A stretch of DNA of 64,000 nucleotides from an uncultured Candidatus Saccharibacteria bacterium (GTDB lineage: Bacteria > Patescibacteriota > Doudnabacteria > UBA920). The notes beneath the pieces are model-generated. The model ran no database searches. It had not been told where the DNA came from and saw only the letters and a program-made list of their open reading frames with translations. The position numbers were made by a program, and so were the translations under genes. The stretch covers positions 1,189-65,188 of the forward strand of contig CAYYWQ010000001.1 of assembly GCA_964474825.1 (NCBI GenBank), written 5' to 3'. Shown in pieces: positions 3,645 through 21,883 of this stretch (position 1 is its first letter; each line of letters begins with the position of its first letter).

Positions 3645-5465
3645 ATGTGCGGAATTGTTGGATACATTGGAAATAAACAAGCTTTGCCGGTCCTGCTTCA
3701 GGGACTGCGGGATTTAGAATATAGAGGCTACGACAGCGCAGGCGTGGCGGTTTTGGACAATGGAGTTATAGACCGCTTACGTGAAGTGGGTAAGGTGGAC
3801 ATGCTTGTAAAAAAGATAGACGGCAAAAAAATGGACGGCAATGTTGGTATTGCTCATACCCGCTGGGCCACACACGGAGGAGTTACGGAGAGTAACGCGC
3901 ATCCGCATATTGTTGGCAAAGGTAAATTAGCCTTGGTGCATAATGGAATAATAGAAAACTACAGGGAACTAAAGAAAGAGTTAGCGCATCACGACTTTAA
4001 ATCTGAAACCGACAGCGAGGTTTTGGCAGCGCTCATAAACGAAAATTACGACGGGGATTTAACACAAGCTGTAAAAAAATCTTTACTAAAAGTTCGCGGC
4101 ACTTATGGTATTGCTGTTATGCATGCGGAGCATCCGGACATTTTAGTTTTGGCCCGTTTAGGCAGCCCTTTGGCAATAGGCATAGGCGAAGGCGAATACT
4201 ATATTGCTTCGGACGTAACACCAATGCTTCCTTACACTAAGCAGGTGTCTTTCTTAGACGATGGCGAAGTTGCCACAGTAAGCCGTGAGGGCCTTAAAAT
4301 TATAAACTTAAAAGATGAAGTTGTAACTAAAAATATTACGCAAATAGATTGGAACCAGGAAACCGCGCAAAAGGGCGGGTATGAGCATTTTATGCTTAAG
4401 GAAATTTTTGACCAGCCCACTGTTTTTGAAGACGCTATTCGTGGAAGACTTGACATGGACGAAGGCACGGCTCGTTTAGGCGGGCTGAATATGACTTTGG
4501 AACAGATGCGCGATATTAAGCGCGTGATGATTATCGCGGAAGGCACAGCCAGGCATGCCGGACTTATTGCCAAATACGCTTTTGAGCGTTTAGCTAACTT
4601 GCCTACCGAAGTAGATTATTCTTCTGAATTCCGTTACCGGGACCCCATAGTAAATAAATCCACTTTAGTTTTTGTAATTTCGCAGTCAGGTGAAACAGCC
4701 GACACTTTAATGGCTGCCAGGGAAGCAAAAAGAAAAGGCGCCATTGTTCGCGGCATTGTAAATGTAGTTGGCTCTACTATTGCCAGGGAAACCAAAGCCG
4801 GTACATATATTCACGCAGGTCCCGAATTGGCCGTTGCTTCCACTAAAGCTTTTACCAATATGGTTGCCGTACTTATGCTTTATGCATTGCAGTTTGGGCG
4901 TTTAAAGCACACATCTTTAGCCACGGGCCAAAGAATGCTCCAGGCGCTTTTAGAAATTCCTGAAAAAATGAATGAAGTGTTAAAACAGGCAGACACAATA
5001 AAAAAGATTGCGGACGAATATTCAAAATACCAAAACATTTTGTTCATGGGCCGCGGAGTAAATTTCCCTGTGGCTTTGGAAGGCGCGCTTAAACTTAAAG
5101 AAATTTCCTACATTCATGCCGAAGGTTATGCCGGCGGCGAAATGAAGCACGGGCCTTTAGCTTTGGTAAGTAAAGACGTGCCAATTGTGGCAATTTTAAG
5201 TAAAGACCAACTTTACGAAAAAATGAAAAGCAGCATCCAAGAAGTCCGTGCCCGCGGCGCCCGTACTCTAATAATCGCCACAGTCGGCGACGAAGAAGCC
5301 AAAGAAGTGGCAGACGAAATTATTTATGTCCCTGACACCATGGAACTGCTTGAGCCGCTGTTGAACACAATTCCCTTACAGCTATTTGCCTACCATATTG
5401 CGGTTGCGTTAGGACGAGATGTAGACAGGCCTAGGAACTTAGCTAAAAGTGTAACAGTGGAATAA
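3645..5465 (+). CDS. glmS: Glutamine--fructose-6-phosphate aminotransferase (isomerising)
   Basis: N-terminal MCGIVGYIG (Ntn Cys2). Length 606 aa, with two SIS domains and a C-terminal ...AKSVTVE. Confidence 0.95.
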   Translation: MCGIVGYIGNKQALPVLLQGLRDLEYRGYDSAGVAVLDNGVIDRLREVGKVDMLVKKIDGKKMDGNVGIAHTRWATHGGVTESNAHPHIVGKGKLALVHNGIIENYRELKKELAHHDFKSETDSEVLAALINENYDGDLTQAVKKSLLKVRGTYGIAVMHAEHPDILVLARLGSPLAIGIGEGEYYIASDVTPMLPYTKQVSFLDDGEVATVSREGLKIINLKDEVVTKNITQIDWNQETAQKGGYEHFMLKEIFDQPTVFEDAIRGRLDMDEGTARLGGLNMTLEQMRDIKRVMIIAEGTARHAGLIAKYAFERLANLPTEVDYSSEFRYRDPIVNKSTLVFVISQSGETADTLMAAREAKRKGAIVRGIVNVVGSTIARETKAGTYIHAGPELAVASTKAFTNMVAVLMLYALQFGRLKHTSLATGQRMLQALLEIPEKMNEVLKQADTIKKIADEYSKYQNILFMGRGVNFPVALEGALKLKEISYIHAEGYAGGEMKHGPLALVSKDVPIVAILSKDQLYEKMKSSIQEVRARGARTLIIATVGDEEAKEVADEIIYVPDTMELLEPLLNTIPLQLFAYHIAVALGRDVDRPRNLAKSVTVE

Positions 5466-10091: not shown

Positions 10092-10424
10092 ATGGAATTT
10101 AAAAAGGAAACCGTCAAAGAAGCTTTTGCTGTAAAACTTACAGCCCATGAAGGGGGTAAGGAAGTAGGGCGGGCGTTTTTGTATGTGTTAAAAAATGATT
10201 TGCACAAAGAGCCCTTTGGTTTTTTGGAAGACGTTTATGTAGAAGAGGAATATAGGAAACACGGCATTGGCTCCCAGCTTGTGGAAAAGGCTATAGCAGA
10301 AGCTAAAGAACAAGGCTGCTATAAATTAATTGGTAACAGTAGAATGGCCAAAGAAAATGTCCATGCTTTTTACGAACGCTTAGGCCTAAAAAAACATGGG
10401 TACGAGTTTAGGATGGATATATGA
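10092..10424 (+). CDS. GNAT-family N-acetyltransferase
   Basis: Acetyl-CoA binding motif EYRKHGIGSQLVEKAI (R/Q-x-x-G-x-G/A). Length 110 aa. Confidence 0.6.
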   Translation: MEFKKETVKEAFAVKLTAHEGGKEVGRAFLYVLKNDLHKEPFGFLEDVYVEEEYRKHGIGSQLVEKAIAEAKEQGCYKLIGNSRMAKENVHAFYERLGLKKHGYEFRMDI

Positions 10425-11164
10425 GGAATCAGATTGTAATCTTGGCCGCGGGTAAAGGAACCAGAATGGGGCAGAGTAATGTGCCTAAGGTTTTGGTAAT
10501 GCTCCAAAACAAGCCTTTAATTTTGTATTTACTGCACCAATTAGACAAAATTACCCAGCTAATTAAGCCAGTGGTGGTTGTTGGCTATATGTCGGAGAAG
10601 GTGGTGGGGGTGCTAGGGGATGACTATAAATTTGCTTACCAGCAAAAGCAGCTCGGTACGGCTCACGCGCTTTTGTGTGCAAAGCCAAAAATTAAAGCTG
10701 ACAACATTTTAGTGCTGTATGGCGATATGCCGTTTATACAAGCAGGCAGTTTAAAAGAATTTATTAAAATGCATTTACATAGCGGCAGCAACATAAGTAT
10801 GATGTCAGCCCAAGCGCCGGATTTTAAAGGCAAGTTCTCCTCTCTGGAACATTACGGCCGTGTACTGCGTGATGCCTTTCATAATATTATTGGAATTGTT
10901 GAACACAAAGACGCCTCTCTGGTCCAGCGGAAAATAAAAGAAGTTAACCCGGCTATATATATGTTCAACACCAAGTGGCTGTGGCAGCACTTAAAAAAAG
11001 TTGGCAATAAAAATTCGCAAAAAGAATATTATTTAACCGATATTGTGCAAATAGCTATTGAGCACGGAGAAAAAGTTGGCTCGCTGTTAATAAGTCCACA
11101 AGAGGCTATTGGGATAAATAGTAAAGAAGACTTGGTTATAGCAGAGAAATTACTGCAAGATTAG
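10421..11164 (+). CDS. Sugar-phosphate nucleotidyltransferase (GlmU N-terminal-like)
   Basis: ILAAGKGTRM signature motif at the N-terminus, and LVLYGDMP. The gene overlaps the upstream stop (ATGA). Confidence 0.65.
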   Translation: MRNQIVILAAGKGTRMGQSNVPKVLVMLQNKPLILYLLHQLDKITQLIKPVVVVGYMSEKVVGVLGDDYKFAYQQKQLGTAHALLCAKPKIKADNILVLYGDMPFIQAGSLKEFIKMHLHSGSNISMMSAQAPDFKGKFSSLEHYGRVLRDAFHNIIGIVEHKDASLVQRKIKEVNPAIYMFNTKWLWQHLKKVGNKNSQKEYYLTDIVQIAIEHGEKVGSLLISPQEAIGINSKEDLVIAEKLLQD

Positions 11165-11223
11165 AGTGCTGTGTTTGCCCTACGTAGTCCCTTTAGGCAC
11201 GAAGTAGGGGATATCATACGAAT

Positions 11224-11251
11224 TTCCCCCTTAAATAAAAGGGGGATTTTT
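11224..11251 (+). terminator. Rho-independent terminator
   Basis: Stem ccccc ttaaataaaa ggggg followed by atttttag. Confidence 0.6.
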
Positions 11252-11517
11252 AGTGTATTTGGGTTGACCTGAAATAGTATGATAATGTATGATAATATCA
11301 TATAGAGCCTTAAAAAGGGTAGGTGTGGGGACCTAAAACAAAAACTTTTAGGCCCCGCCATCTGCCTTTTCCAGCTTAATGTTTGGCGGTAAGTTATAGA
11401 ACCAAGAGACTTGGTTTTGTAATCTGCCGCCAACCACGTTGTTGGTATCGCCGGCAGAACCCCAATTTGTAGGAGGGGTGGATGCATAAGGTCAAATTTT
11501 TATAAGGGAGAAAGTAG

Positions 11518-12729
11518 TTGGACATACGCCTCAGTTCCACTCTTGGTCAGTTGCAACCGTTGGTCTATCCTCGCTTGGAGAAGGCCAGACTCAACGCCAA
11601 GGCAAAGTTCGGTTCGACCGGAGTCATTAAGTTGACTATCGGAAGTCCCGATCGCCCTGCGCCTGAGAAGATCCGGCAGAAGCTTTCTGCTTCAGCCCAA
11701 GACGCAGAGAAGTATCATTATTCTCTGCCGGCATTCGGTTCACCGGAGCTGCTTAGAGGGGCTTCGGACTATCTGTTTCGCATGGACGAAACACGGCTCA
11801 ATCCCAAAACCCAGATTGTCGGTTTGCCGGGAAGCCGTTACGCAATTGCCGCTGCCATTCGCACGATGATCGATCCAGGGGATTCGGTTTTGGTCCCTGG
11901 GTTCGGCTATCCCGCTTATCGCAACGGTGTTTTGTTGGCTCACGGTCAGGTTGTATACTACTCTGTGAAGCCCACTCTCGACCAATTCGAGCAGATTTAC
12001 AACGCGTATTACAGCGTTGAGCCTGCTCCGCGTGTCCTTGCCGTTTGCTCTCCAGGTAACCCCGCTGGACAGATCAATGAAGAAGACTTCTTCCGGAAGA
12101 TCGTTGCGTTTGCCAAAGAGAACGATCTGTTGATTATTTCGGACGAGGCATATCGGCGGACCTGCTTTGATGGCTTACGGGCACCGGGGTTGATGGAATT
12201 CGACGGAGAAGAGGTTGGAATTTCGACCTGGACTCTGTCCAAGACCATTGATATTCCTGGTCCTCGCGTTGCTTTCGTTCACGGCAACCAGACCATCTGC
12301 GCCGGCCTGAAGAAGATGCATAGCATGTTATTTTATGGAATCTTCCAGGCTATTGAGGATGCTGCAGTAGTAGGACTGGCCGCCGAATTCGACGAGTTTC
12401 CAACGGAAACAGCAGCTATCTATCAGCGACGGCGGGACTTGGTGTGCAACATCTTCGACGCCGCCGGGTTGAATTACATCCGGCCACAAGGCGGAATGTT
12501 TGTTGCTCTGGAAATCCCTAACCGGGGAGATCGGAGCAGTATTGATGTTGCCGCTGAGGTGCTCGAAGCCACCGGCGTTGAGGTGGTTGCAGGAGAAATG
12601 TTCGGACCCGACGGCGAGGACTATCTCCGCATCGCTCTGGTGCAGTCTGATGAGATTATGGAGGATGGTTGCCTGAAGCTCGCAGCTCATTTTCCGGAGA
12701 GCGTCAGAACTCGCGCACGTTTGACCTGA
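11518..12729 (+). CDS. Class I/II (fold type I) PLP-dependent aminotransferase, aspartate/LL-DAP aminotransferase-like. GC-rich foreign-looking gene with a TTG start.
   Basis: 403-aa ORF with aminotransferase class I architecture, including a TLSKT region near the PLP-lysine position. Composition is clearly higher-GC than its neighbours. The start codon is TTG, preceded by gggagaaagtag. Confidence 0.75.
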   Translation: MDIRLSSTLGQLQPLVYPRLEKARLNAKAKFGSTGVIKLTIGSPDRPAPEKIRQKLSASAQDAEKYHYSLPAFGSPELLRGASDYLFRMDETRLNPKTQIVGLPGSRYAIAAAIRTMIDPGDSVLVPGFGYPAYRNGVLLAHGQVVYYSVKPTLDQFEQIYNAYYSVEPAPRVLAVCSPGNPAGQINEEDFFRKIVAFAKENDLLIISDEAYRRTCFDGLRAPGLMEFDGEEVGISTWTLSKTIDIPGPRVAFVHGNQTICAGLKKMHSMLFYGIFQAIEDAAVVGLAAEFDEFPTETAAIYQRRRDLVCNIFDAAGLNYIRPQGGMFVALEIPNRGDRSSIDVAAEVLEATGVEVVAGEMFGPDGEDYLRIALVQSDEIMEDGCLKLAAHFPESVRTRARLT

Positions 12730-12923
12730 TACTCTGGGCGGCGGTTGGTGGATTTTAGCTAGATCCTTCCATACCTCCGCCCTTTGCCCTTTTCTGGAAA
12801 GTTTTTAAAAAGTATGATATCATCATACAGGACATATTAGCATCTTATCATTTTAACATTTTATCATTCTGGTTTCGCAGTTTGATAAAATGATAGTATG
12901 ATAGCATGTTAAAATGATTTTTT

Positions 12924-13766
12924 ATGAATCGTGAACGTTTAACAATTACACTTCGGTCCGACTTGCTTAAGTCGCTGGACTCTTTAATAGACGGCGAGAG
13001 ACTTAGGAACCGCAGCCATGCTATTGAGTATTTTTTGTCGCGCTCTATGGGGGCCAAGAGCGTGAAGGTTTTAATTTTAGCCGGCGGTAAGCCTGTGTAT
13101 TTTGAAAGTGAAAAAAAGAGTTTGCCAAAGACTATGGTTAAAATTGCGGGCAAGCCTTTGCTGGAACAGACTTTGCATAGGCTAAAGGCTTCTAAGTTTA
13201 CAGACATTACTATTTCCATAGGAGAAGGTGGCGAAAGTATAAAAAATTATTTTGGCGACGGCAGCAACATGGGTATAAAAATTAGCTACTTGGAGCAAAA
13301 ATCCCAGAGCGCGGGCAATGCCCAGCCTTTGCTTCAGGCGAAAGAGCATCTTGGCGGCAGCGACTTTCTGATGCTTTATGGTGATGTGCTTTCCGACATA
13401 GATTACAACGATTTTGTAGAATTTCATCGTAGCCAAAAATCTTCAGTCTGCACCATGGCTCTAACCAGCACTGAGTCCGTAGACATGTGGGGCTTGGCGA
13501 GGCTTCAGGGCAATAGAGTAGTGGAGTTTGAAGAAAAGCCCAAAAACCCTAAAACGTTTTCGCGTTTAATTAACGCAGGTATTTACATGATGGAAGCGGA
13601 AATTTTTAAATACATTAGCGGGCAAACAGGAAAATTGGAAGGCCAGGTCTTTCCACGTTTGGCAGAGGAAGGAAAACTGAGCGGATATCCTTTTGAAGGT
13701 TTGTGGCTGGACATTAACAGTAGTGCAGCTTACCGACAAGCGGTTAAGCAAGTTAAAAGTTTATAA
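12924..13766 (+). CDS. Ribbon-helix-helix (CopG/NikR-like) domain fused to a sugar-phosphate nucleotidyltransferase
   Basis: N-terminal RLTITLRSDLLKSLDSLIDGERLRNRSHAIEYFLSRS has a beta-strand + two-helix RHH pattern. It is followed by VLILAGG...LMLYGDVLSDIDY, matching the NTP_transferase fold. Confidence 0.65.
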   Translation: MNRERLTITLRSDLLKSLDSLIDGERLRNRSHAIEYFLSRSMGAKSVKVLILAGGKPVYFESEKKSLPKTMVKIAGKPLLEQTLHRLKASKFTDITISIGEGGESIKNYFGDGSNMGIKISYLEQKSQSAGNAQPLLQAKEHLGGSDFLMLYGDVLSDIDYNDFVEFHRSQKSSVCTMALTSTESVDMWGLARLQGNRVVEFEEKPKNPKTFSRLINAGIYMMEAEIFKYISGQTGKLEGQVFPRLAEEGKLSGYPFEGLWLDINSSAAYRQAVKQVKSL

Positions 13767-13792: not shown

Positions 13793-14818
13793 ATGGCTAA
13801 AACAACATCTGGCAAAACAAAAATAGCATTAAATGGACTCGGTCGGATTGGCAGAGTTTTTTTACGCATTGCTTATAACAATCCAAATTTTGAAATAGTG
13901 GCCGCGCATAGCAGAAGCCCTTTAGAAATGTACGCGCATCTTTTAAAATACGACACCACCTACGGCACTTGGGACAAGGAAGTTAGGGCAGAGGGCAGTA
14001 ATTTAATAATCGATGGTGTCCGAATTCCTTATGTCCAGGACGAAGGCGGAAAATTGCCTTGGAAAAAATTGGGGGTAGATTTACTGCTAGACGCTACAGG
14101 TAATGCCACCAAAAGGGACAAAGCTTCCCAGCACTTAAAAGACGGGGCAAAATTTGTTGTTGTAACTGCGCCAATGGACGACGCGGACGAAACTTTTGTG
14201 TTTGCGGCCAACCACACAAAGTTTAACCCGGCTAAGCATAAAATTATTTCTGCCGCTTCCTGCACAACGGTTTGCAGCGCTTTAACTATAAAAGTTTTAG
14301 AAGAAAATTTTGGCGTAAAGCAAGGGTTTATAAATACCGTGCACGCGGTTACCAGCGACCAAAGCCTGCTGGACGGCTCCCATAAAGATTTACGTCGCGC
14401 CCGTTCCGCAATGGAGTCCATTATTCCTACTACCACTGGGGTTAGTAAAACTATTATCAAGCTGTACCCGCACCTTAAGGGAAAAATTTCTGCATTGTCC
14501 CTACGTGTTCCTGTGCAAAACCCTTCTATTGTTGTTTTAACCGCGGAACTAAAAAAACCAACCACTTTGGCCGGTTTGAATAAAGCTTTTACAGAAGCCT
14601 CTCAGGGCGAGTTAAAGAGTCATTTAGCTGTTTCTAATTTGCCTTTAGTGTCTACAGATTTCCGCGGCAACCCTAACGGTGCAATAATAGATTTGTTAAG
14701 TAATGAATTAGTAGACGGAAAACTGGCAAACGTTTTAGCCTGGTATGACAATGAGTGGGGATATGTAACGCAGATGTCAAAACTTGTAGAGTATGTTAGC
14801 CAGAGAATTAGAGACTAG
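13793..14818 (+). CDS. gap: Glyceraldehyde-3-phosphate dehydrogenase (type I)
   Basis: NGLGRIGR NAD-binding motif, catalytic ASCTTVC, and a C-terminal WYDNEWGY. Confidence 0.85.
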   Translation: MAKTTSGKTKIALNGLGRIGRVFLRIAYNNPNFEIVAAHSRSPLEMYAHLLKYDTTYGTWDKEVRAEGSNLIIDGVRIPYVQDEGGKLPWKKLGVDLLLDATGNATKRDKASQHLKDGAKFVVVTAPMDDADETFVFAANHTKFNPAKHKIISAASCTTVCSALTIKVLEENFGVKQGFINTVHAVTSDQSLLDGSHKDLRRARSAMESIIPTTTGVSKTIIKLYPHLKGKISALSLRVPVQNPSIVVLTAELKKPTTLAGLNKAFTEASQGELKSHLAVSNLPLVSTDFRGNPNGAIIDLLSNELVDGKLANVLAWYDNEWGYVTQMSKLVEYVSQRIRD

Positions 14819-15654: not shown

Positions 15655-16920
15655 ATGAGAATAATTGCGGATCTTCAAATACATTCAAAATATTCTAGGG
15701 CCTGCAGTCAAGACTTAAATCCTTACACTATTGGTGCGTGGGCTGACAAGAAAGGTATTGCTGTTGTTGGTACCGGAGACTTTACTCATCCGCGATGGCT
15801 TTTGGAACTTAAAGAAGCTTTGGAAGAAGTTAAACCGGGGCTTTATAGGCTGAAAGATAAATCCGCCGCCGCTTATTTTATGCTCACTGCCGAGGTGTCG
15901 AGCATTTACAAACAAGGGGACAAAGTGCGAAGGATTCATAATATGATTTTTGCTCCTAACTTTTCAGCAGTAGACAAAATCATTATGAGTTTAGAAAAGA
16001 GAGGGGCAAACTTAAAGGCAGACGGCAGGCCAATAATGGGTGTGCATTGTGACGATTTGGTAAAAATAGCCAAGGAGGCCAACTCAAACATAGAAATAAT
16101 TCCAGCTCATGCGTGGACGCCGCATTTTGGAGTGTTTGGCAGTTTGTCGGGTTTTAACAGTATAGAAGAAGCATTTGGTGACCAGGCTAAATATATTAAA
16201 GCTATTGAAACTGGCTTATCATCCGATCCCAAAATGAACTGGCAAATTAGCGGGCTAGATAAATATTCTTTAACTTCCAATTCCGACGCACATAGTTTGC
16301 GTAAGTTAGGGAGAGAGGCGAATGTTTTTGAAATTGCGGAAGACAAGCTATCTTATGCAGAAATTATTAGTACTTTGTATAGTAAAGACCCAACCAGGTT
16401 TTTATACACCTTGGAGTTTTTTCCGGAGGAGGGAAAGTACCACTTAGATGGCCATCGTGATTGTAAATTTTCCTGCCTGCCCGCACAGACAAAAAAACTA
16501 AAAGGCATTTGCCCGGTTTGCGGTAAAAAATTATTAGTAGGAGTTTTAAATAGAGTAGAAGAATTGGCAGACAGGAAATATGGCTTTACGCCGCAAAGAG
16601 CAGTGCCATTTAAGAGCGTAATTCCTTTGGAAGAAATTATTGCAGAAACTTTAGACGTGGGAACGGGGAGTAAAAAAGTTGTGGCCCAATATGAAGCCAT
16701 GGTTGCTAAAAAACCAGAATTTGAAATTTTGTTAGATTTAAGTGAAGACCAGATTATTCAAATATCATCAGCCGACATCGCAACAAGCGTAATACGAGTG
16801 AGAAACGGTCAGGTTAAGGTAGAAGCCGGGTATGACGGCTTGTTTGGTAAAATCCACATATTCGGAGAAGGCGAGAGGGAAAAAATCTTAAAAAAGCCAA
16901 AACAAATGGGATTATTTTGA
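15655..16920 (+). CDS. Endonuclease Q-like (PHP-domain nuclease with C-terminal zinc ribbon)
   Basis: IADLQIHSKYSRA, VGTGDFTHPRW, GKYHLDGHRDC and CPVCGKKLLVGVLNRVEELAD line up with the conserved blocks of archaeal EndoQ. The corresponding EndoQ blocks are DLHIHSHYSKA, VGTGDSLNPHW, GKYHLTACSRC and CPKCGG...RILELAD. Confidence 0.7.
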   Translation: MRIIADLQIHSKYSRACSQDLNPYTIGAWADKKGIAVVGTGDFTHPRWLLELKEALEEVKPGLYRLKDKSAAAYFMLTAEVSSIYKQGDKVRRIHNMIFAPNFSAVDKIIMSLEKRGANLKADGRPIMGVHCDDLVKIAKEANSNIEIIPAHAWTPHFGVFGSLSGFNSIEEAFGDQAKYIKAIETGLSSDPKMNWQISGLDKYSLTSNSDAHSLRKLGREANVFEIAEDKLSYAEIISTLYSKDPTRFLYTLEFFPEEGKYHLDGHRDCKFSCLPAQTKKLKGICPVCGKKLLVGVLNRVEELADRKYGFTPQRAVPFKSVIPLEEIIAETLDVGTGSKKVVAQYEAMVAKKPEFEILLDLSEDQIIQISSADIATSVIRVRNGQVKVEAGYDGLFGKIHIFGEGEREKILKKPKQMGLF

Positions 16921-18977: not shown

Positions 18978-19295
18978 ATGAGAAAAATACCACGAGAAGG
19001 TTATGAGCCCAAACATGAGCCAACATCTCTCGATGATGTAATGCAAGGCCTGAACAGTTTAGGTATGGTACAGAATGCTATTAGAAATCCCACAGCCGAA
19101 GATATACTGCTTATGGAAAGTATGAAAGAGCAAATAAGGGGGCAAATAAAAGATTTACATGGTCTGGAAGAAATTAAAGCTGGCTTGAGGAAGCAGAAGG
19201 GTGACGATGCAAAGCTTACACTTGCGGCTTTAGAAAGAGCTGATTTAACATGGCTGGATGAATCTAATGATTCTAGTAAAACCGCCCAGGCTTAG
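18978..19295 (+). CDS. Hypothetical protein
   Basis: 105-aa ORF followed by a clean terminator aaaaccgcccaggcttagtaggcggtttttt (19283-19312). Confidence 0.35.
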   Translation: MRKIPREGYEPKHEPTSLDDVMQGLNSLGMVQNAIRNPTAEDILLMESMKEQIRGQIKDLHGLEEIKAGLRKQKGDDAKLTLAALERADLTWLDESNDSSKTAQA

Positions 19296-19408
19296 TAGGC
19301 GGTTTTTTAATGACAGATTTAAAAAAACAGGATATAATAAAGTTAATGAATCTATCATACTTTGTATGATTTTTTAATAAAAATTTATCCTTAATTAAGA
19401 GAGAATTT

Positions 19409-21883
19409 ATGGATCAAGACAGAGACAAAACGTTTATTTTGTGGTTTGACCAAATCAAAAAGGAAGACGTGCATTTGGTCGGCGGCAAGAATGCCAACTT
19501 AGGGGAAATGTTTCAGAATTTAACGAACGCCGAGAGCGCCACATTTAAAGGTGAGAAAATCTCTGTGCCTTACGGTTTTGCCGTAACAGCAGCGGCTTAC
19601 GCTCATTTTATTAAGGAGAATCAGTTAGACGCCAAAATTAGGCAGGCCCTGGAAGGTTTGAACACCCACGACATAAAACAGTTAGAGCAAAAAGGCCAGC
19701 AGGTCAGGCAATTAATTTTGGAAGCCGACTTCCCAACAGATTTGCGCCAGCAAATTAAGACAGCTTTTGAAGAACTGGGCAAGAAATTAAAACTTACCTC
19801 ACAGGAATTAGATGTAGCTGTTAGGTCCAGTGCCACAGCGGAAGATTTACCAGACGCCAGCTTTGCCGGGCAACAGGAAAGTTACTTAAACGTTCGTGGT
19901 GAATACGAACTTTTGGAAGCTATTAAAAAAGCTTTCGCATCTTTGTTTACCAACCGAGCTATTTCTTATCGTGTTGACCAGAAGTTTGACCATTTTGAAG
20001 TTAAGCTTTCTGTTGCCGTGCAAAAAATGGCAAGGTCCGACAGAGGGGCCAGCGGCGTGGTCTTTACACTGGACACCGAAAGCGGTTTTAAAGATTTAGT
20101 TTTAATTAACGCCTCCTGGGGTTTGGGTGAGTTTGTGGTTAAGGGTGTTGTTACCCCGGACGAATATAAAGTTTTTAAGCCAACTTTGCGTAAAGGTTTT
20201 AAGGCAGTTATAAGCAAAAAAATTGGCAGTAAAGAGAAAAAGTTAATTTACGCTACGGAAGGCACTCAGGCCACTAAAGAATTGCCAGTTGCCGAAGCAG
20301 ACCGTCACCGTTTTGTTTTAAACGACGAGCAAATAATGAAGCTGGCCAAATGGGCAGTTATAATAGAAGACCACTATGGCAGGCCAATGGACATTGAATG
20401 GGCCTACGATGGCTTAGACCAGACTTTATACATTGTGCAGGCCAGGCCGGAGACAGTGCAGGCGCGAAAGAGCGGCACGGTTTTGGAAGAGTTTGTTATG
20501 GAAGAAAAGAATGGTAAAGTCTTGGTAACCGGCGCTGCCGTTGGTGCTAAAATTGGTCAGGGCAAGGCCCATTATATTAAAGACGCAACTCAAATTTCTG
20601 AGTTCAAAAAAGGTGAAGTATTGCTTACGGAAATTACAGATCCAGACTGGGAACCAATCATGAAAATAGCTTCCGCTATTGTAACCAACAGCGGCGGCAG
20701 GACTTCGCATGCTGCTATTGTTTCGCGCGAACTTGGTATTCCGGCTATTGTAGGTTGTGGCCATGCTACAGAGGTTATTAAAGACGGGCAGGAAATTACA
20801 GCGTCATGCGCAGAAGGTGAAGTAGGAAAAGTTTATGAAGGCCTTCTTAAATATGAAGTTAAACGCCATGACTTAACAGACTTCCAGCCCCCAAAGACAG
20901 ACATTAAAATGATAGCCGCAGACCCAGAGCTGGCTTTTAGCCACTGCTTTACACCGAACAAAGGAGTAGGTTTGGCGCGCGTGGAATTTGTTATTTCCAA
21001 CTTTATTAAAATCCACCCTAATGCGTTAATAGATTACGAAAAGTTAACAGATAAAACCGTTAAAGAACAAATAGACGAACTCACAGCCGGATATCCTGAC
21101 AAAGTGGAATATTATTTGAATAAGTTTGCTTACGGTGTGGCCCAGTTGGCCGCGGCGTTTTACCCTTATGATGTATTGCTCCGTTTCTCTGACTTCAAAA
21201 GCAACGAGTACGCCAACTTAATTGGCGGTAAACTTTATGAGCCGGAAGAAGAAAATCCAATGCTTGGTTGGCGCGGAGCCAGCCGTTACTATGACCCAAA
21301 ATTCCAAAAAGCTTTTGCTTTGGAATGCGAGGCAGTAAAAAAAGTTCGTGAAGAAATGGGTCTGTGGAATTTAAGCGTTATGATTCCGTTCTGCAGAACA
21401 CCTGAAGAAGGTAAAAAAGTTGTAGAAGAAATAAACAAGAACGGTTTAACCAGCCGCATAACTCCTGAACAGCGTAAGAAAAAGAAAAACGGCGACTTGG
21501 TGGAAGCCATGGAAATTTGGGTTATGGCCGAAATTCCTTCCAACATTTTGCAGGTAGACGAATTCGCGGAAATTTTTGACGGCTTCTCTATTGGCTCTAA
21601 CGACTTGACCCAGTTAACATTGGGATTAGACCGTGACAACAAAAACATTGCCCACATTGGCAATGAAAGAAGTAAGGCTGTTGCCAAGTTGATCCACATG
21701 CTCATTACCGAAGCCCACGCCCGCGGCCTGAAAGTCGGCATTTGCGGCCAAGGCCCTTCCGACTTCCCGGACTTTGGTGAATACTTGGTGAAAGAAGGAA
21801 TAGACTCAATATCAATCAACCCAGACACAGTCCTTAAAGCCAATATTCAAATTAAGGAAGTAGAAGACAAGATGGGGAAGTAG
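19409..21883 (+). CDS. ppsA: Phosphoenolpyruvate synthase (pyruvate, water dikinase)
   Basis: GGKNANLGEM N-terminal ATP-grasp signature, a central phospho-histidine domain (GGRTSHAAIVSRELGIP), and a C-terminal PEP-utilising TIM barrel. Length 824 aa. Confidence 0.9.
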   Translation: MDQDRDKTFILWFDQIKKEDVHLVGGKNANLGEMFQNLTNAESATFKGEKISVPYGFAVTAAAYAHFIKENQLDAKIRQALEGLNTHDIKQLEQKGQQVRQLILEADFPTDLRQQIKTAFEELGKKLKLTSQELDVAVRSSATAEDLPDASFAGQQESYLNVRGEYELLEAIKKAFASLFTNRAISYRVDQKFDHFEVKLSVAVQKMARSDRGASGVVFTLDTESGFKDLVLINASWGLGEFVVKGVVTPDEYKVFKPTLRKGFKAVISKKIGSKEKKLIYATEGTQATKELPVAEADRHRFVLNDEQIMKLAKWAVIIEDHYGRPMDIEWAYDGLDQTLYIVQARPETVQARKSGTVLEEFVMEEKNGKVLVTGAAVGAKIGQGKAHYIKDATQISEFKKGEVLLTEITDPDWEPIMKIASAIVTNSGGRTSHAAIVSRELGIPAIVGCGHATEVIKDGQEITASCAEGEVGKVYEGLLKYEVKRHDLTDFQPPKTDIKMIAADPELAFSHCFTPNKGVGLARVEFVISNFIKIHPNALIDYEKLTDKTVKEQIDELTAGYPDKVEYYLNKFAYGVAQLAAAFYPYDVLLRFSDFKSNEYANLIGGKLYEPEEENPMLGWRGASRYYDPKFQKAFALECEAVKKVREEMGLWNLSVMIPFCRTPEEGKKVVEEINKNGLTSRITPEQRKKKKNGDLVEAMEIWVMAEIPSNILQVDEFAEIFDGFSIGSNDLTQLTLGLDRDNKNIAHIGNERSKAVAKLIHMLITEAHARGLKVGICGQGPSDFPDFGEYLVKEGIDSISINPDTVLKANIQIKEVEDKMGK

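What the first reader, a model, noticed from the sequence alone, without database searches (positions are those of the whole stretch)
12850..13766. Ribbon-helix-helix domain fused to a sugar-phosphate nucleotidyltransferase, preceded by candidate operator inverted repeats
The first ~45 residues (MNRERLTITLRSDLLKSLDSLIDGERLRNRSHAIEYFLSRS) have the beta-strand/helix/helix pattern of CopG/ParD/NikR DNA-binding domains. They run directly into a canonical NTP_transferase domain (VLILAGG...LMLYGDVLSD). A one-polypeptide DNA-binding metabolic enzyme of this kind is uncommon. Upstream inverted repeats (TTTTATCA/TGATAAAA and ATGATA boxes overlapping a TTGATA-N-TAAAAT promoter) are plausible autoregulatory operators. 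One reading is sugar-nucleotide or substrate-responsive autorepression.
Basis: inference. Interest (0 to 1): 0.55.

Follow-up and report, generated by a model that had tools for sequence, protein, structure and literature searches.

The report
Sugar-enzyme-derived repressor of glycolysis genes
This gene most likely encodes a previously unrecognised type of transcription repressor that is widespread in the tiny-celled Patescibacteria: a nickel-regulator-like DNA-binding head fused to a sugar-nucleotide enzyme fold that probably acts as a sensor, apparently controlling its own operon and central sugar-metabolism genes.

Summary
The ORF 12924-13766 is real. It fuses a NikR-type ribbon-helix-helix (RHH) domain (residues 1-45) to a GDP-mannose/UDP-glucose-pyrophosphorylase-like fold (residues 48-277). 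The fusion is no accident of one genome. It is full-length in more than 240 protein clusters and at least 80 Patescibacteria species, and the RHH is its best-conserved part. Databases call it only "sugar phosphate nucleotidyltransferase".

Its inverted repeats are the arms of a lineage-specific 84-nt leader hairpin (12833-12916). The conserved operator is the perfect palindrome GTATGAT-ATC-ATCATAC at 12812-12828, centred on an extended -10. It lies 22 nt upstream of the finding's start coordinate.

GTATGAT half-sites spaced 10 bp apart, direct or inverted, precede the orthologue in 65 of 80 species, a 51-fold enrichment. They also precede the aminotransferase (11277-11303) and ppsA (19354-19370) in this window. 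GTATGAT is the enterobacterial NikR half-site.

Neighbouring and operator-linked genes are glycolytic or gluconeogenic: gap, pgk, pfk, glpX, ROK kinase, ppsA. The catalytic Gly-Thr-Arg loop is degenerate (GGKPVYF here) while the ligand pocket is invariant. A shorter paralogue has lost the catalytic segments altogether.

Best reading: a one-component repressor with an enzyme-derived sugar-nucleotide sensor, functionally comparable to CggR. All of this is computational; nothing has been tested at the bench.

The parts
12924..13766 (+). Gene for the RHH-nucleotidyltransferase-fold fusion protein (280 aa)
   Evidence: ORF list. Pfam and NCBIfam matches. Full-length orthologues in more than 240 clusters and 80 species.
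12924..13058 (+). NikR-type ribbon-helix-helix DNA-binding domain (residues 1-45): putative beta-strand RLTITL, helix 12-21, helix 30-45 with the N-cap motif RNRS
   Evidence: RHH_1 scores 23 bits when scanned alone. NikR matches. A profile search of the PDB returns only RHH proteins. The AF2 model gives extended segment, helix, helix. 38% of columns are at least 95% conserved, against 14% in the rest of the protein.
13065..13754 (+). Sugar-1-phosphate nucleotidyltransferase fold (residues 48-277) with a degenerate catalytic G-loop (GGKPVYF) and a conserved ligand pocket; proposed effector-sensing domain
   Evidence: PF00483 at E 2e-32. Foldseek top hits are RmlA, a UDP-glucose pyrophosphorylase, GDP-mannose pyrophosphorylases and MurU. 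Alignments to solved enzymes show GTR replaced by PVY.
12812..12828 (.). Operator O-self: perfect palindrome GTATGAT-ATC-ATCATAC, centred on the extended -10 TGaTATCAT (12815-12823) of the predicted promoter TGGAAA-N17-TATCAT
   Evidence: Repeat I11. The pattern occurs twice in the window against 0.06 expected. The promoter scan is. Equivalent sites lie upstream of 65 of 80 orthologues.
12833..12916 (+). Leader hairpin (39-nt imperfect arms), followed by a T6 run and then the ATG.
   Evidence: No Rfam family reaches threshold. Orthologues with long leaders carry hairpins of unrelated sequence.
11277..11303 (+). Operator O-AT: three half-sites, GTATGAT-aat-GTATGAT-aat-ATCATAT, overlapping the promoter TTGACC-N18-TATGAT upstream of the class I/II aminotransferase gene (11518-12729)
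   Evidence: The same three-half-site arrangement lies at the equivalent position, upstream of the aminotransferase where one was called, in most Doudnabacteria loci.
19354..19370 (.). Candidate third operator: ATCATAC-ttt-GTATGAT (everted pair, 10-bp register), 39 nt upstream of the PEP synthase gene (19409-21883)
   Evidence: Its conservation in other genomes was not tested.
13793..14818 (+). gap (glyceraldehyde-3-phosphate dehydrogenase). It starts 27 nt after the regulator's stop codon, has its own Shine-Dalgarno sequence, and no terminator was predicted between the two genes. It is the probable second gene of the autoregulated operon.
   Evidence: GAPDH lies directly downstream in 24 of 75 loci.

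Best explanation
The gene encodes a one-component transcriptional repressor.

DNA binding. The N-terminal NikR-type RHH domain is expected to form the usual intertwined dimer. Each dimer would read a 7-bp half-site, GTATGAT. Operators hold two or three half-sites in a strict 10-bp register, in direct, inverted or everted orientation. Adjacent RHH dimers would therefore sit on one face of the DNA.

Repression. In this window the palindrome at 12812-12828 covers the extended -10 of the regulator's own promoter, so a bound protein would exclude RNA polymerase. This would autorepress the regulator-gap operon. Further operators precede the aminotransferase and ppsA genes. Across the phylum the linked genes are glycolytic or gluconeogenic.

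Sensing. The C-terminal nucleotidyltransferase fold is proposed to be the effector-binding and oligomerising module. It would sense a nucleotide-sugar or hexose-1-phosphate, most probably of the GDP-mannose or UDP-glucose type. In this Doudnabacteria clade it is probably non-catalytic.

What is shown and what is inferred. Shown computationally: the domain identities, the conservation of the fusion, the operator motif and its specificity and promoter overlap, the gene linkage, and the degeneracy of the G-loop. Inferred: DNA binding by this particular protein, the direction of regulation, the identity of the ligand, and the loss of catalysis.
For: RHH identity:
- Pfam, NCBIfam and PDB matches to RHH and NikR.
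- The AF2 model shows an extended N-terminal segment followed by two helices.
- The RHH is the most conserved part of the protein across 80 species.

Operator:
- Site density is 4.6 per kb in the 200 nt upstream of the gene and 0.089 per kb elsewhere in 610 kb of loci. 65 of 80 loci carry a site.
- Of the direct-repeat sites, 90 are co-oriented with the gene and 1 is not.
- The window holds only three site clusters. The inverted pattern occurs twice against 0.06 expected.
- The sites overlap predicted -10 elements.
- The half-site equals the E. coli and enterobacterial NikR half-site: GTATGA-N16-TCATAC (PMC7055735) and GTATGAT-N13/14-ATCATAC (PMC545781).

Independent test of the RHH-motif link. 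A shorter paralogous family shares the same RHH but has a decayed C-terminal domain. It carries a (G/A)TATGA-N5-TCATAT palindrome abutting its own start codon.

Regulon:
- Directly downstream lie gap in 24 loci, pgk in 7 and a ROK kinase in 3. pfk, a PfkB kinase and an IMPase/FBPase-family gene lie nearby.
- An unbiased metagenome scan with the operator 17-mer recovered glpX FBPase, pfk and a GH63-like glycosidase behind TTGAC-N-operator promoters.

Sensor:
- Arg occupies the catalytic G-loop position in 3 of 80 orthologues and Thr occupies its position in 2 of 80.
- P68-K69, G131, D154, E204 and P206, G219, W261 are invariant, and K205, N217 and D263 nearly so.
- Solved active enzymes, and the window's own second nucleotidyltransferase (10421-11164, GKGTRM), keep the G-T-R motif.
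- The short paralogue lacks the G-loop/PK segment and the EKP segment entirely. It heads ManC-PMM-ROK operons.
Against: - There are no experimental data for any member of the family.
- CopG has the same RLTITL strand. From memory, it reads a different operator. Sharing a half-site with NikR is therefore suggestive, not proof.
- About half of the family carries Lys in place of the catalytic Arg, together with an otherwise near-canonical loop (GGxGxKMRP). Those members may still be active enzymes.
- 15 of 80 loci lack a site with at most one mismatch within 200 nt upstream.
- Regulon inference outside the window rests on 8-kb loci. The roughly 20 Doudnabacteria loci share synteny and are not independent observations.
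- The ppsA site was seen in this one genome only.
- The ligand and the sign of its effect are unknown.
Confidence: 0.7

Rival explanations
1. It is a true bifunctional, moonlighting protein in the manner of PutA, BirA or NadR. On this reading it is an active sugar-1-phosphate nucleotidyltransferase that also represses its own operon, with substrate or product occupancy of the active site setting DNA affinity.
For: The whole ligand and metal pocket is conserved: PK, YGD, EKP, NAG and WxD. About half of the orthologues have GGxGxKMRP, a conservative Arg-to-Lys change. Non-Doudnabacteria members score 121 bits against GDP-mannose pyrophosphorylases.
Against: In this window's protein the G-T-R / R-P-L-T motif reads P-V-Y / E-S-E-K. 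The Arg position varies freely across the family: K, Y, N, F, D, Q. A paralogue with the same RHH has lost the catalytic segments. The short paralogue sits next to a separate, canonical ManC. The window encodes another nucleotidyltransferase that retains GKGTRM.
Confidence: 0.2
2. The operators are the TTTTATCA/TGATAAAA and ATGATA boxes between 12850 and 12923, overlapping a TTGATA...TAAAAT promoter.
For: The boxes exist. The region contains ATGAT/ATCAT cores and one perfect GTATGAT heptamer (12896-12902) that overlaps a weak candidate promoter, TTCGCA-N17-TATGAT. These could be auxiliary low-affinity sites.
Against: The boxes are the paired arms of one hairpin. This sequence recurs only in L006, only in its left arm, and the L006 leader folds weakly there (z = -1.6). 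Other orthologues have unrelated hairpins or no long leader at all. The proposed promoter has a 22-nt spacer and was not found by the scan. The half-site spacing here is 8 or 16 bp, not the family's 10 bp.
Confidence: 0.07
3. The N-terminal domain does not bind DNA. It would instead be a dimerisation module or an antitoxin-like remnant, and the GTATGAT repeats would be a special promoter architecture or the site of a different factor.
For: The second half-site supplies the -10 (TAGTAT, TATGAT or TATCAT), so part of the motif's conservation could be promoter conservation. A TrmB-like regulator gene lies in 17 of the loci.
Against: The first half-site lies in the promoter spacer, which normally is not conserved. 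Palindromic and three-half-site versions exist. The motif is essentially confined to this gene's neighbourhood rather than being found at promoters in general. It also travels with the RHH in the short paralogue family. The TrmB-like gene is absent from most loci.
Confidence: 0.03

Closest known systems
NikR (nickel-responsive RHH repressor)
   Same: It is the closest sequence relative of the DNA-binding domain: ERLTITLRSDLLKSLDSL here against QRVTITLDDDLLETLDSL in E. coli NikR. The half-site GTATGA(T) is identical (PMC7055735, PMC545781). Both have an N-terminal RHH followed by a C-terminal effector and oligomerisation domain (PMC11672702).
   Different: The C-terminal domain is a nucleotidyltransferase fold, not the ACT-like nickel-binding domain. 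The half-sites are 3 bp apart (10-bp register), not 13-16 bp apart, and may be direct repeats. The linked genes concern sugar metabolism, not nickel uptake.
CggR (central glycolytic genes repressor, Bacillus subtilis)
   Same: This is a functional analogy and rests on my own knowledge. CggR is an autoregulated repressor encoded as the first gene immediately upstream of gapA and the glycolytic genes. Its effector domain has a sugar-phosphate-enzyme-like fold.
   Different: The two are not homologous. CggR is a SorC/DeoR-type HTH protein that senses fructose-1,6-bisphosphate. Here the DNA-binding domain is an RHH and the sensor is a nucleotidyltransferase fold.
PutA, BirA and NadR (enzyme-repressor fusions)
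   Same: Each is a single polypeptide that combines a DNA-binding domain with an enzyme fold. PutA uses an RHH. NadR carries a nucleotidyltransferase of a different superfamily. This comparison rests on my own knowledge.
   Different: Those enzymes are catalytically active. Here the catalytic loop is degenerate, and the enzyme fold (PF00483) has not, to my knowledge and in two literature searches, been described as a transcription-factor module.
GMPPA (catalytically inactive paralogue of GDP-mannose pyrophosphorylase)
   Same: It is a nucleotidyltransferase-fold protein re-used as a sensor of GDP-mannose. PDB 7d72 is among the structural hits. Its sensor role is from my own knowledge.
   Different: GMPPA regulates an enzyme partner allosterically. 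It has no DNA-binding domain.
Omega repressor, CopG, Arc and MetJ (RHH repressors on repeated short sites)
   Same: Several RHH dimers bind adjacent short repeats that overlap promoters. From my own knowledge, omega accepts both direct and inverted heptads. CopG shares the RLTITL strand.
   Different: Those are small stand-alone RHH proteins without a fused sensor fold, apart from MetJ's SAM site.

Membership tests
Ribbon-helix-helix superfamily (Pfam RHH_1 / CopG-MetJ-Arc) | Sequence match to the RHH profile over the strand-helix-helix unit | tested here: met
   PF01402 scores 23.0 bits when residues 1-45 are scanned alone (cut-off 20.5) and 19.2 bits in the full protein. A profile of the domain hits only RHH proteins in the PDB.
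Ribbon-helix-helix superfamily (Pfam RHH_1 / CopG-MetJ-Arc) | N-terminal beta-strand followed by two helices | tested here: met
   The AF2 model has an extended segment at residues 1-11, then helices 12-21 and 30-45. Block-mean pLDDT across residues 1-50 runs from 78 to 94. DSSP assigns no strand because the pairing strand of a partner subunit is absent from a monomer model.
Ribbon-helix-helix superfamily (Pfam RHH_1 / CopG-MetJ-Arc) | Intertwined homodimer whose two-stranded sheet enters the major groove | not testable with these tools
   Only single-chain prediction was available.
NikR | C-terminal ACT-like tetramerisation domain with a His/Cys nickel site | tested here: not met
   Residues 48-277 form a nucleotidyltransferase fold. 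The NikR NCBIfam models match residues 3-41 only and score far below their cut-offs.
NikR | Operator made of two GTATGA half-sites about two helical turns apart | tested here: not met
   The half-site sequence is the same, but the spacing is N3 (10-bp register) and the orientation varies.
Sugar-1-phosphate nucleotidyltransferases (PF00483) | The fold and a profile match | tested here: met
   E 2e-32. Foldseek gives query-normalised TM-scores of about 0.7-0.75 to RmlA, a UDP-glucose pyrophosphorylase, GDP-mannose pyrophosphorylases and MurU.
Sugar-1-phosphate nucleotidyltransferases (PF00483) | N-terminal signature G-x-G-T-R-(L/M)-x-P-(L/I)-T carrying the catalytic Arg | tested here: not met
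   The window protein reads GGKPVYFESEKK where solved enzymes read GKGTRVRPIT or GFGTRLRPLT. Arg is present in 3 of 80 orthologues and Thr in 2 of 80.
Sugar-1-phosphate nucleotidyltransferases (PF00483) | Pocket and metal residues (PK lysine, GD aspartate, EKP, WxD aspartate) | tested here: met
   K69, D154 and E204 are invariant in both alignments. K205 is K in 78 of 80 and D263 is D in 79 of 80.
Sugar-1-phosphate nucleotidyltransferases (PF00483) | Pyrophosphorylase activity | not testable with these tools
   This needs an enzyme assay.
CggR / SorC family | N-terminal winged-helix DNA-binding domain plus a SorC sugar-binding domain | tested here: not met
   The Pfam scan of the protein, listing families up to E = 1, returned neither domain. 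The resemblance lies only in gene position and inferred role.

The most novel reading that the evidence does not exclude
The family would be the principal regulator of central carbon metabolism and sugar activation across much of the Patescibacteria. It would be a repressor built by capturing a GDP-mannose/UDP-glucose-pyrophosphorylase fold as a now non-catalytic nucleotide-sugar sensor and joining it to a NikR-like RHH. It would feed the level of an activated sugar back onto transcription of the gap, pgk, glpX, pfk and ppsA genes. This would be the first case of this enzyme fold serving as a transcription-factor sensor. It would also be one of the first regulons defined for this largely uncultured phylum.
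Probability: 0.45. Interest if true: 0.8.

Novelty: new variant of a known kind. Interest (0 to 1): 0.7.

Why it matters
Patescibacteria (the Candidate Phyla Radiation) make up a large share of bacterial diversity. They have very small genomes and, to my knowledge, almost no characterised transcription factors.

This finding offers three things:
- A phylum-wide, testable regulator together with its operator sequence. That makes regulon prediction possible in hundreds of uncultured genomes.
- A clear example of an enzyme fold recruited as a sensor. It comes with intermediates: a near-canonical loop, a degenerate loop, and a paralogue with the catalytic segments deleted.
- A correction to annotation. 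Every named member among the proteins retrieved here is labelled a nucleotidyltransferase-type enzyme or a hypothetical protein. That inflates the inferred sugar-nucleotide biosynthetic capacity of these organisms.

The identity of the half-site with that of NikR also provides a natural experiment on how an RHH domain sets its DNA specificity.

Tried and rejected
- Rfam search of 11100-13000 at E up to 1 returned only chance matches to microRNA-precursor models over the leader hairpin and nothing at a gathering score. The hairpin is not a known RNA family.
- I tested whether the leader hairpin is a general feature of this genome. It is not; it is the longest inverted repeat in the window.
- I tested whether the hairpin is conserved. 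Orthologues with long leaders often have strong hairpins, but of unrelated sequence, and about half of the loci have leaders of 36 nt or less. I therefore rejected it as the conserved operator.
- The metagenome scan with the exact 17-mer operator returned mostly microsatellite-like or chance hits. Only about ten loci were informative.
- I could not retrieve the NikR-DNA co-crystal paper or a text naming the base-contacting residues. That point rests on memory.
- The afdb50 fold library was unavailable, so UniProt-level taxonomy of the architecture was not obtained.
- Cluster look-up of the short paralogues gave no organism names.
- The frameshift or split-gene explanation is rejected.
- A MurU/AmgK-type salvage pair was considered for the downstream kinase-like gene. 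That gene is only DUF6206-like with a weak protein-kinase-fold signal, and NCBIfam MurU scores 88 bits against a cut-off of 250.
Full report
OBSERVATION. The ORF 12924-13766 (+) encodes 280 residues. Pfam places NTP_transferase on residues 48-277 (E 2e-32). RHH_1 falls on residues 5-35, at 19.2 bits in the whole protein and 23.0 bits when residues 1-45 are scanned alone; the cut-off is 20.5. NCBIfam and the PDB both single out the DNA-binding domain of NikR as the closest relative of the N-terminus: ERLTITLRSDLLKSLDSL...NRSHAI here against QRVTITLDDDLLETLDSL...NRSEAI in E. coli NikR. A profile built from 24 family N-termini hits only RHH proteins among 177,635 PDB sequences. These are E. coli NikR (E 1e-6), CopG, antitoxin Rv0298 and P. 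horikoshii NikR. An AlphaFold2 model (mean pLDDT 89.5, pTM 0.82) has an extended N-terminal segment, helices 12-21 and 30-45, and then a complete nucleotidyltransferase fold. Foldseek against the PDB returns nucleotidyltransferases only, aligned over about 240 columns, so no solved structure has this architecture.

THE FUSION IS CONSERVED. Full-length relatives fill the top 120 clusters of each of two database searches. Those that carry a name are called sugar phosphate nucleotidyltransferase, NDP-sugar pyrophosphorylase or hypothetical protein. Only 2 of the 240 have a precomputed RHH hit. A scan of one genome per GTDB species returned 486 relatives. All of the best 80 carry the N-terminal domain, with tblastn matches starting at query residue 1-3. 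By their record titles they span Doudna-, Buchanan-, Falkow-, Uhr-, Morani-, Kerfeld-, Berkel- and Spechtbacteria and Paceibacterota. The RHH is the best-conserved part of the protein. RLTITL and (I/L)RNRSHAIEY are almost invariant while overall identity falls to 41%. In the RHH 38% of columns are at least 95% conserved, against 14% in the rest. This excludes a frameshift or a split gene.

THE OPERATOR. As RNA this folds at -30.5 kcal/mol, z = -6.2. It is the longest inverted repeat in the window and matches no Rfam family. Its sequence is shared, on the left arm only, with one orthologous locus (L006).

Inspection of the 150 nt upstream of all 80 orthologues shows a different conserved element. 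It consists of GTATGAT half-sites in a 10-bp register. They are inverted (GTATGAT-N3-ATCATAC) in Doudnabacteria and direct (GTATGAT-N3-GTATGAT) in most other lineages. In the window this element is the perfect palindrome at 12812-12828.

The statistics are as follows:
- At one mismatch or fewer, 65 of 80 loci have a site within 200 nt upstream of the gene.
- Site density there is 4.6 per kb, against 0.089 per kb in the remaining 594 kb.
- Of the direct-repeat sites, 90 are co-oriented with the gene and 1 is not.
- In the window the inverted pattern occurs twice against 0.06 expected, and the heptamer 12 times against 4.1 expected.

The sites overlap core promoters. In this window the centre of the palindrome is an extended -10, TGaTATCAT, in the predicted promoter TGGAAA-N17-TATCAT. 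In 19 of the 45 loci with direct-repeat sites a TTGAC -35 lies exactly 9 nt upstream of the site, which makes TAGTAT the -10. The half-site equals that of NikR: E. coli GTATGA-N16-TCATAC (PMC7055735) and the enterobacterial consensus GTATGAT-N13/14-ATCATAC (PMC545781). One caveat applies. CopG shares the RLTITL strand but, from memory, reads a different operator.

AN INDEPENDENT TEST OF THE RHH-MOTIF LINK. A phmmer search with the RHH alone against 1.84 billion representative proteins found a second population of 201-223-residue proteins. They carry the same RHH, but their C-terminal domain is no longer recognised by Pfam. Profile-profile comparison shows that this domain is a decayed nucleotidyltransferase fold (probability 100%, E 3e-51). 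Both the G-loop/PK segment and the EKP segment are deleted. In contigs of about 0.9 Mb these genes head operons encoding a ManC-type nucleotidyltransferase, a phosphomannomutase-family enzyme and a ROK kinase. Each carries a (G/A)TATGA-N5-TCATAT palindrome that ends in its own ATG. The motif therefore follows the RHH. The nucleotidyltransferase fold is evidently used without catalysis in at least one branch of the family.

REGULON AND CONTEXT. The window contains two further site clusters. One has three half-sites at 11277-11303, overlapping TTGACC-N18-TATGAT upstream of the aminotransferase; the same three-half-site arrangement recurs at the equivalent position in most Doudnabacteria loci. 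The other is an everted pair at 19354-19370, 39 nt upstream of the PEP synthase gene.

The regulator is followed after 27 nt by gap, with no predicted terminator between them. Among 75 loci where the gene could be placed, the next co-directional gene is gap in 24, a DUF6206-like kinase-fold gene in 12, pgk in 7 and a ROK kinase in 3. At least one glycolytic or gluconeogenic gene (gap, pgk, pfk, a PfkB kinase, a ROK kinase or an IMPase/FBPase-family gene) lies within 4 kb in 44 of the 75. An unbiased scan of metagenomes with the exact 17-mer was noisy. Among hits with a proper -35 it recovered the regulator itself, glpX FBPase, pfk and a GH63-like glycosidase. The roughly 20 Doudnabacteria loci share synteny, so these counts overstate independence. 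Even so, the association recurs in several lineages.

ENZYME OR SENSOR. Solved active relatives read G-x-G-T-R-x-R-P-(L/I)-T, whereas the window protein reads G-G-K-P-V-Y-F-E-S-E-K. Across 80 species Arg occupies the catalytic position in 3; the others have K (39), Y (13), N (9), F, D or Q. Thr occupies its position in 2. By contrast P68-K69, G131, D154, E204 and P206, G219 and W261 are invariant, and K205, N217 and D263 nearly so. The window's other nucleotidyltransferase (10421-11164) keeps GKGTRM. Non-Doudnabacteria members resemble GDP-mannose pyrophosphorylases most closely, at 121 bits. The pattern is a conserved pocket, a relaxed catalytic loop and a paralogue with the catalytic segments deleted. 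It favours a ligand-sensing role. Activity in the Lys-containing members cannot be excluded.

MECHANISM. RHH dimers bind adjacent GTATGAT half-sites over the -10 and block RNA polymerase. The nucleotidyltransferase-fold domains tether the dimers, and on binding a nucleotide-sugar or hexose phosphate they change DNA affinity. The result is autoregulation of the regulator-gap operon and control of the aminotransferase gene, ppsA and, elsewhere in the phylum, other glycolytic and gluconeogenic genes. The direction of the effect and the identity of the ligand are inferences. By analogy with end-product feedback, an activated sugar acting as corepressor is plausible.

THE LEADER HAIRPIN. With the predicted -10 at 12818-12823, transcription should start near 12830, so the hairpin would sit at the extreme 5' end of the mRNA. 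It ends 7 nt before the ATG and is followed by T6, and no Shine-Dalgarno sequence is visible. Possible roles are 5'-end stabilisation, attenuation or translational control. None was testable here. The region also holds one isolated perfect heptamer (12896-12902), which overlaps a weak candidate promoter.

COMPARISON AND NOVELTY. The protein is not a NikR, because it has no nickel-binding domain and a different operator geometry. It is not a canonical member of the active sugar-1-phosphate nucleotidyltransferases, because the signature loop is not met. It works like an RHH one-component repressor and, by gene position and linked genes, like CggR, to which it is unrelated. Two literature searches found no description of this architecture. 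I rate it a new variant of a known kind, with interest 0.7.

Noticed in passing
window 11315-11370 (and on to about 11517): The roughly 215-nt leader of the aminotransferase gene begins, right after the operator, with a conserved hairpin: GG(C/T)AG(A/G)TG.GGGAG, then a variable stem-loop, then CCCCGCCATCTGCC, followed by a U-run. In 11 Doudnabacteria sequences 8 of its 20 pairs show compensatory changes (alifold -25.8 kcal/mol). A second conserved hairpin follows (TTGGCGGCAAG...CTTGCCGC). It has no Rfam match. It may be an attenuator or an undescribed cis-regulatory RNA.
   Followed up: partly
L202-L204, gene at 4001-4651: A paralogous family of about 201-223 residues has the same NikR-like RHH fused to a decayed nucleotidyltransferase-like domain. 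It is the first gene of ManC-PMM-ROK operons in contigs of about 0.9 Mb. A GTATGA-N5-TCATAT palindrome abuts its start codon, which suggests a leaderless, autoregulated mRNA.
   Followed up: partly
L022 4915-5853, L074 5211-6245 and 14 other loci: A gene family of about 330 residues lies directly downstream of the regulator in 12 non-Doudnabacteria loci. It has only weak DUF6206 and protein-kinase-fold similarity. It may be an uncharacterised sugar kinase. In L046 and L074 it is preceded by its own GTATGAT operator.
   Followed up: partly
L003, L005, L010, L016, L039, L052, L043, L059, L030 (leaders upstream of the orthologue): Leaders between the operator and the start codon are often long hairpins built from short repeated words that differ between species: CTACAGAA/TTCTGTAG, GGTAGGTT/CTACCAAT, ACAAATT/AATTTGT. 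L030 instead has a tandem AGGAAGT array. The structure recurs without sequence conservation. Their origin and role are unknown.
   Followed up: partly
window 19354-19370: A perfect everted pair of half-sites, ATCATAC-ttt-GTATGAT, lies between a terminator-like hairpin (about 19285-19310) and the PEP synthase gene. It is probably a third operator. Its conservation in other genomes was not checked.
   Followed up: partly
window 15655-16920: This 421-residue ORF is syntenic in 15 loci and starts with a PHP-like DLQIHS motif, yet it has no Pfam match at E 1e-4. It sits divergently from the IMPase/FBPase-family gene.
   Followed up: no
L016 1677-2423 and 16 other loci: A TrmB-like (sugar-specific regulator) gene of about 247 residues lies a few genes away from the RHH regulator in 17 loci. 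It is upstream in some Doudnabacteria-type loci and downstream in several others. It is a second candidate sugar regulator in the same neighbourhood.
   Followed up: no
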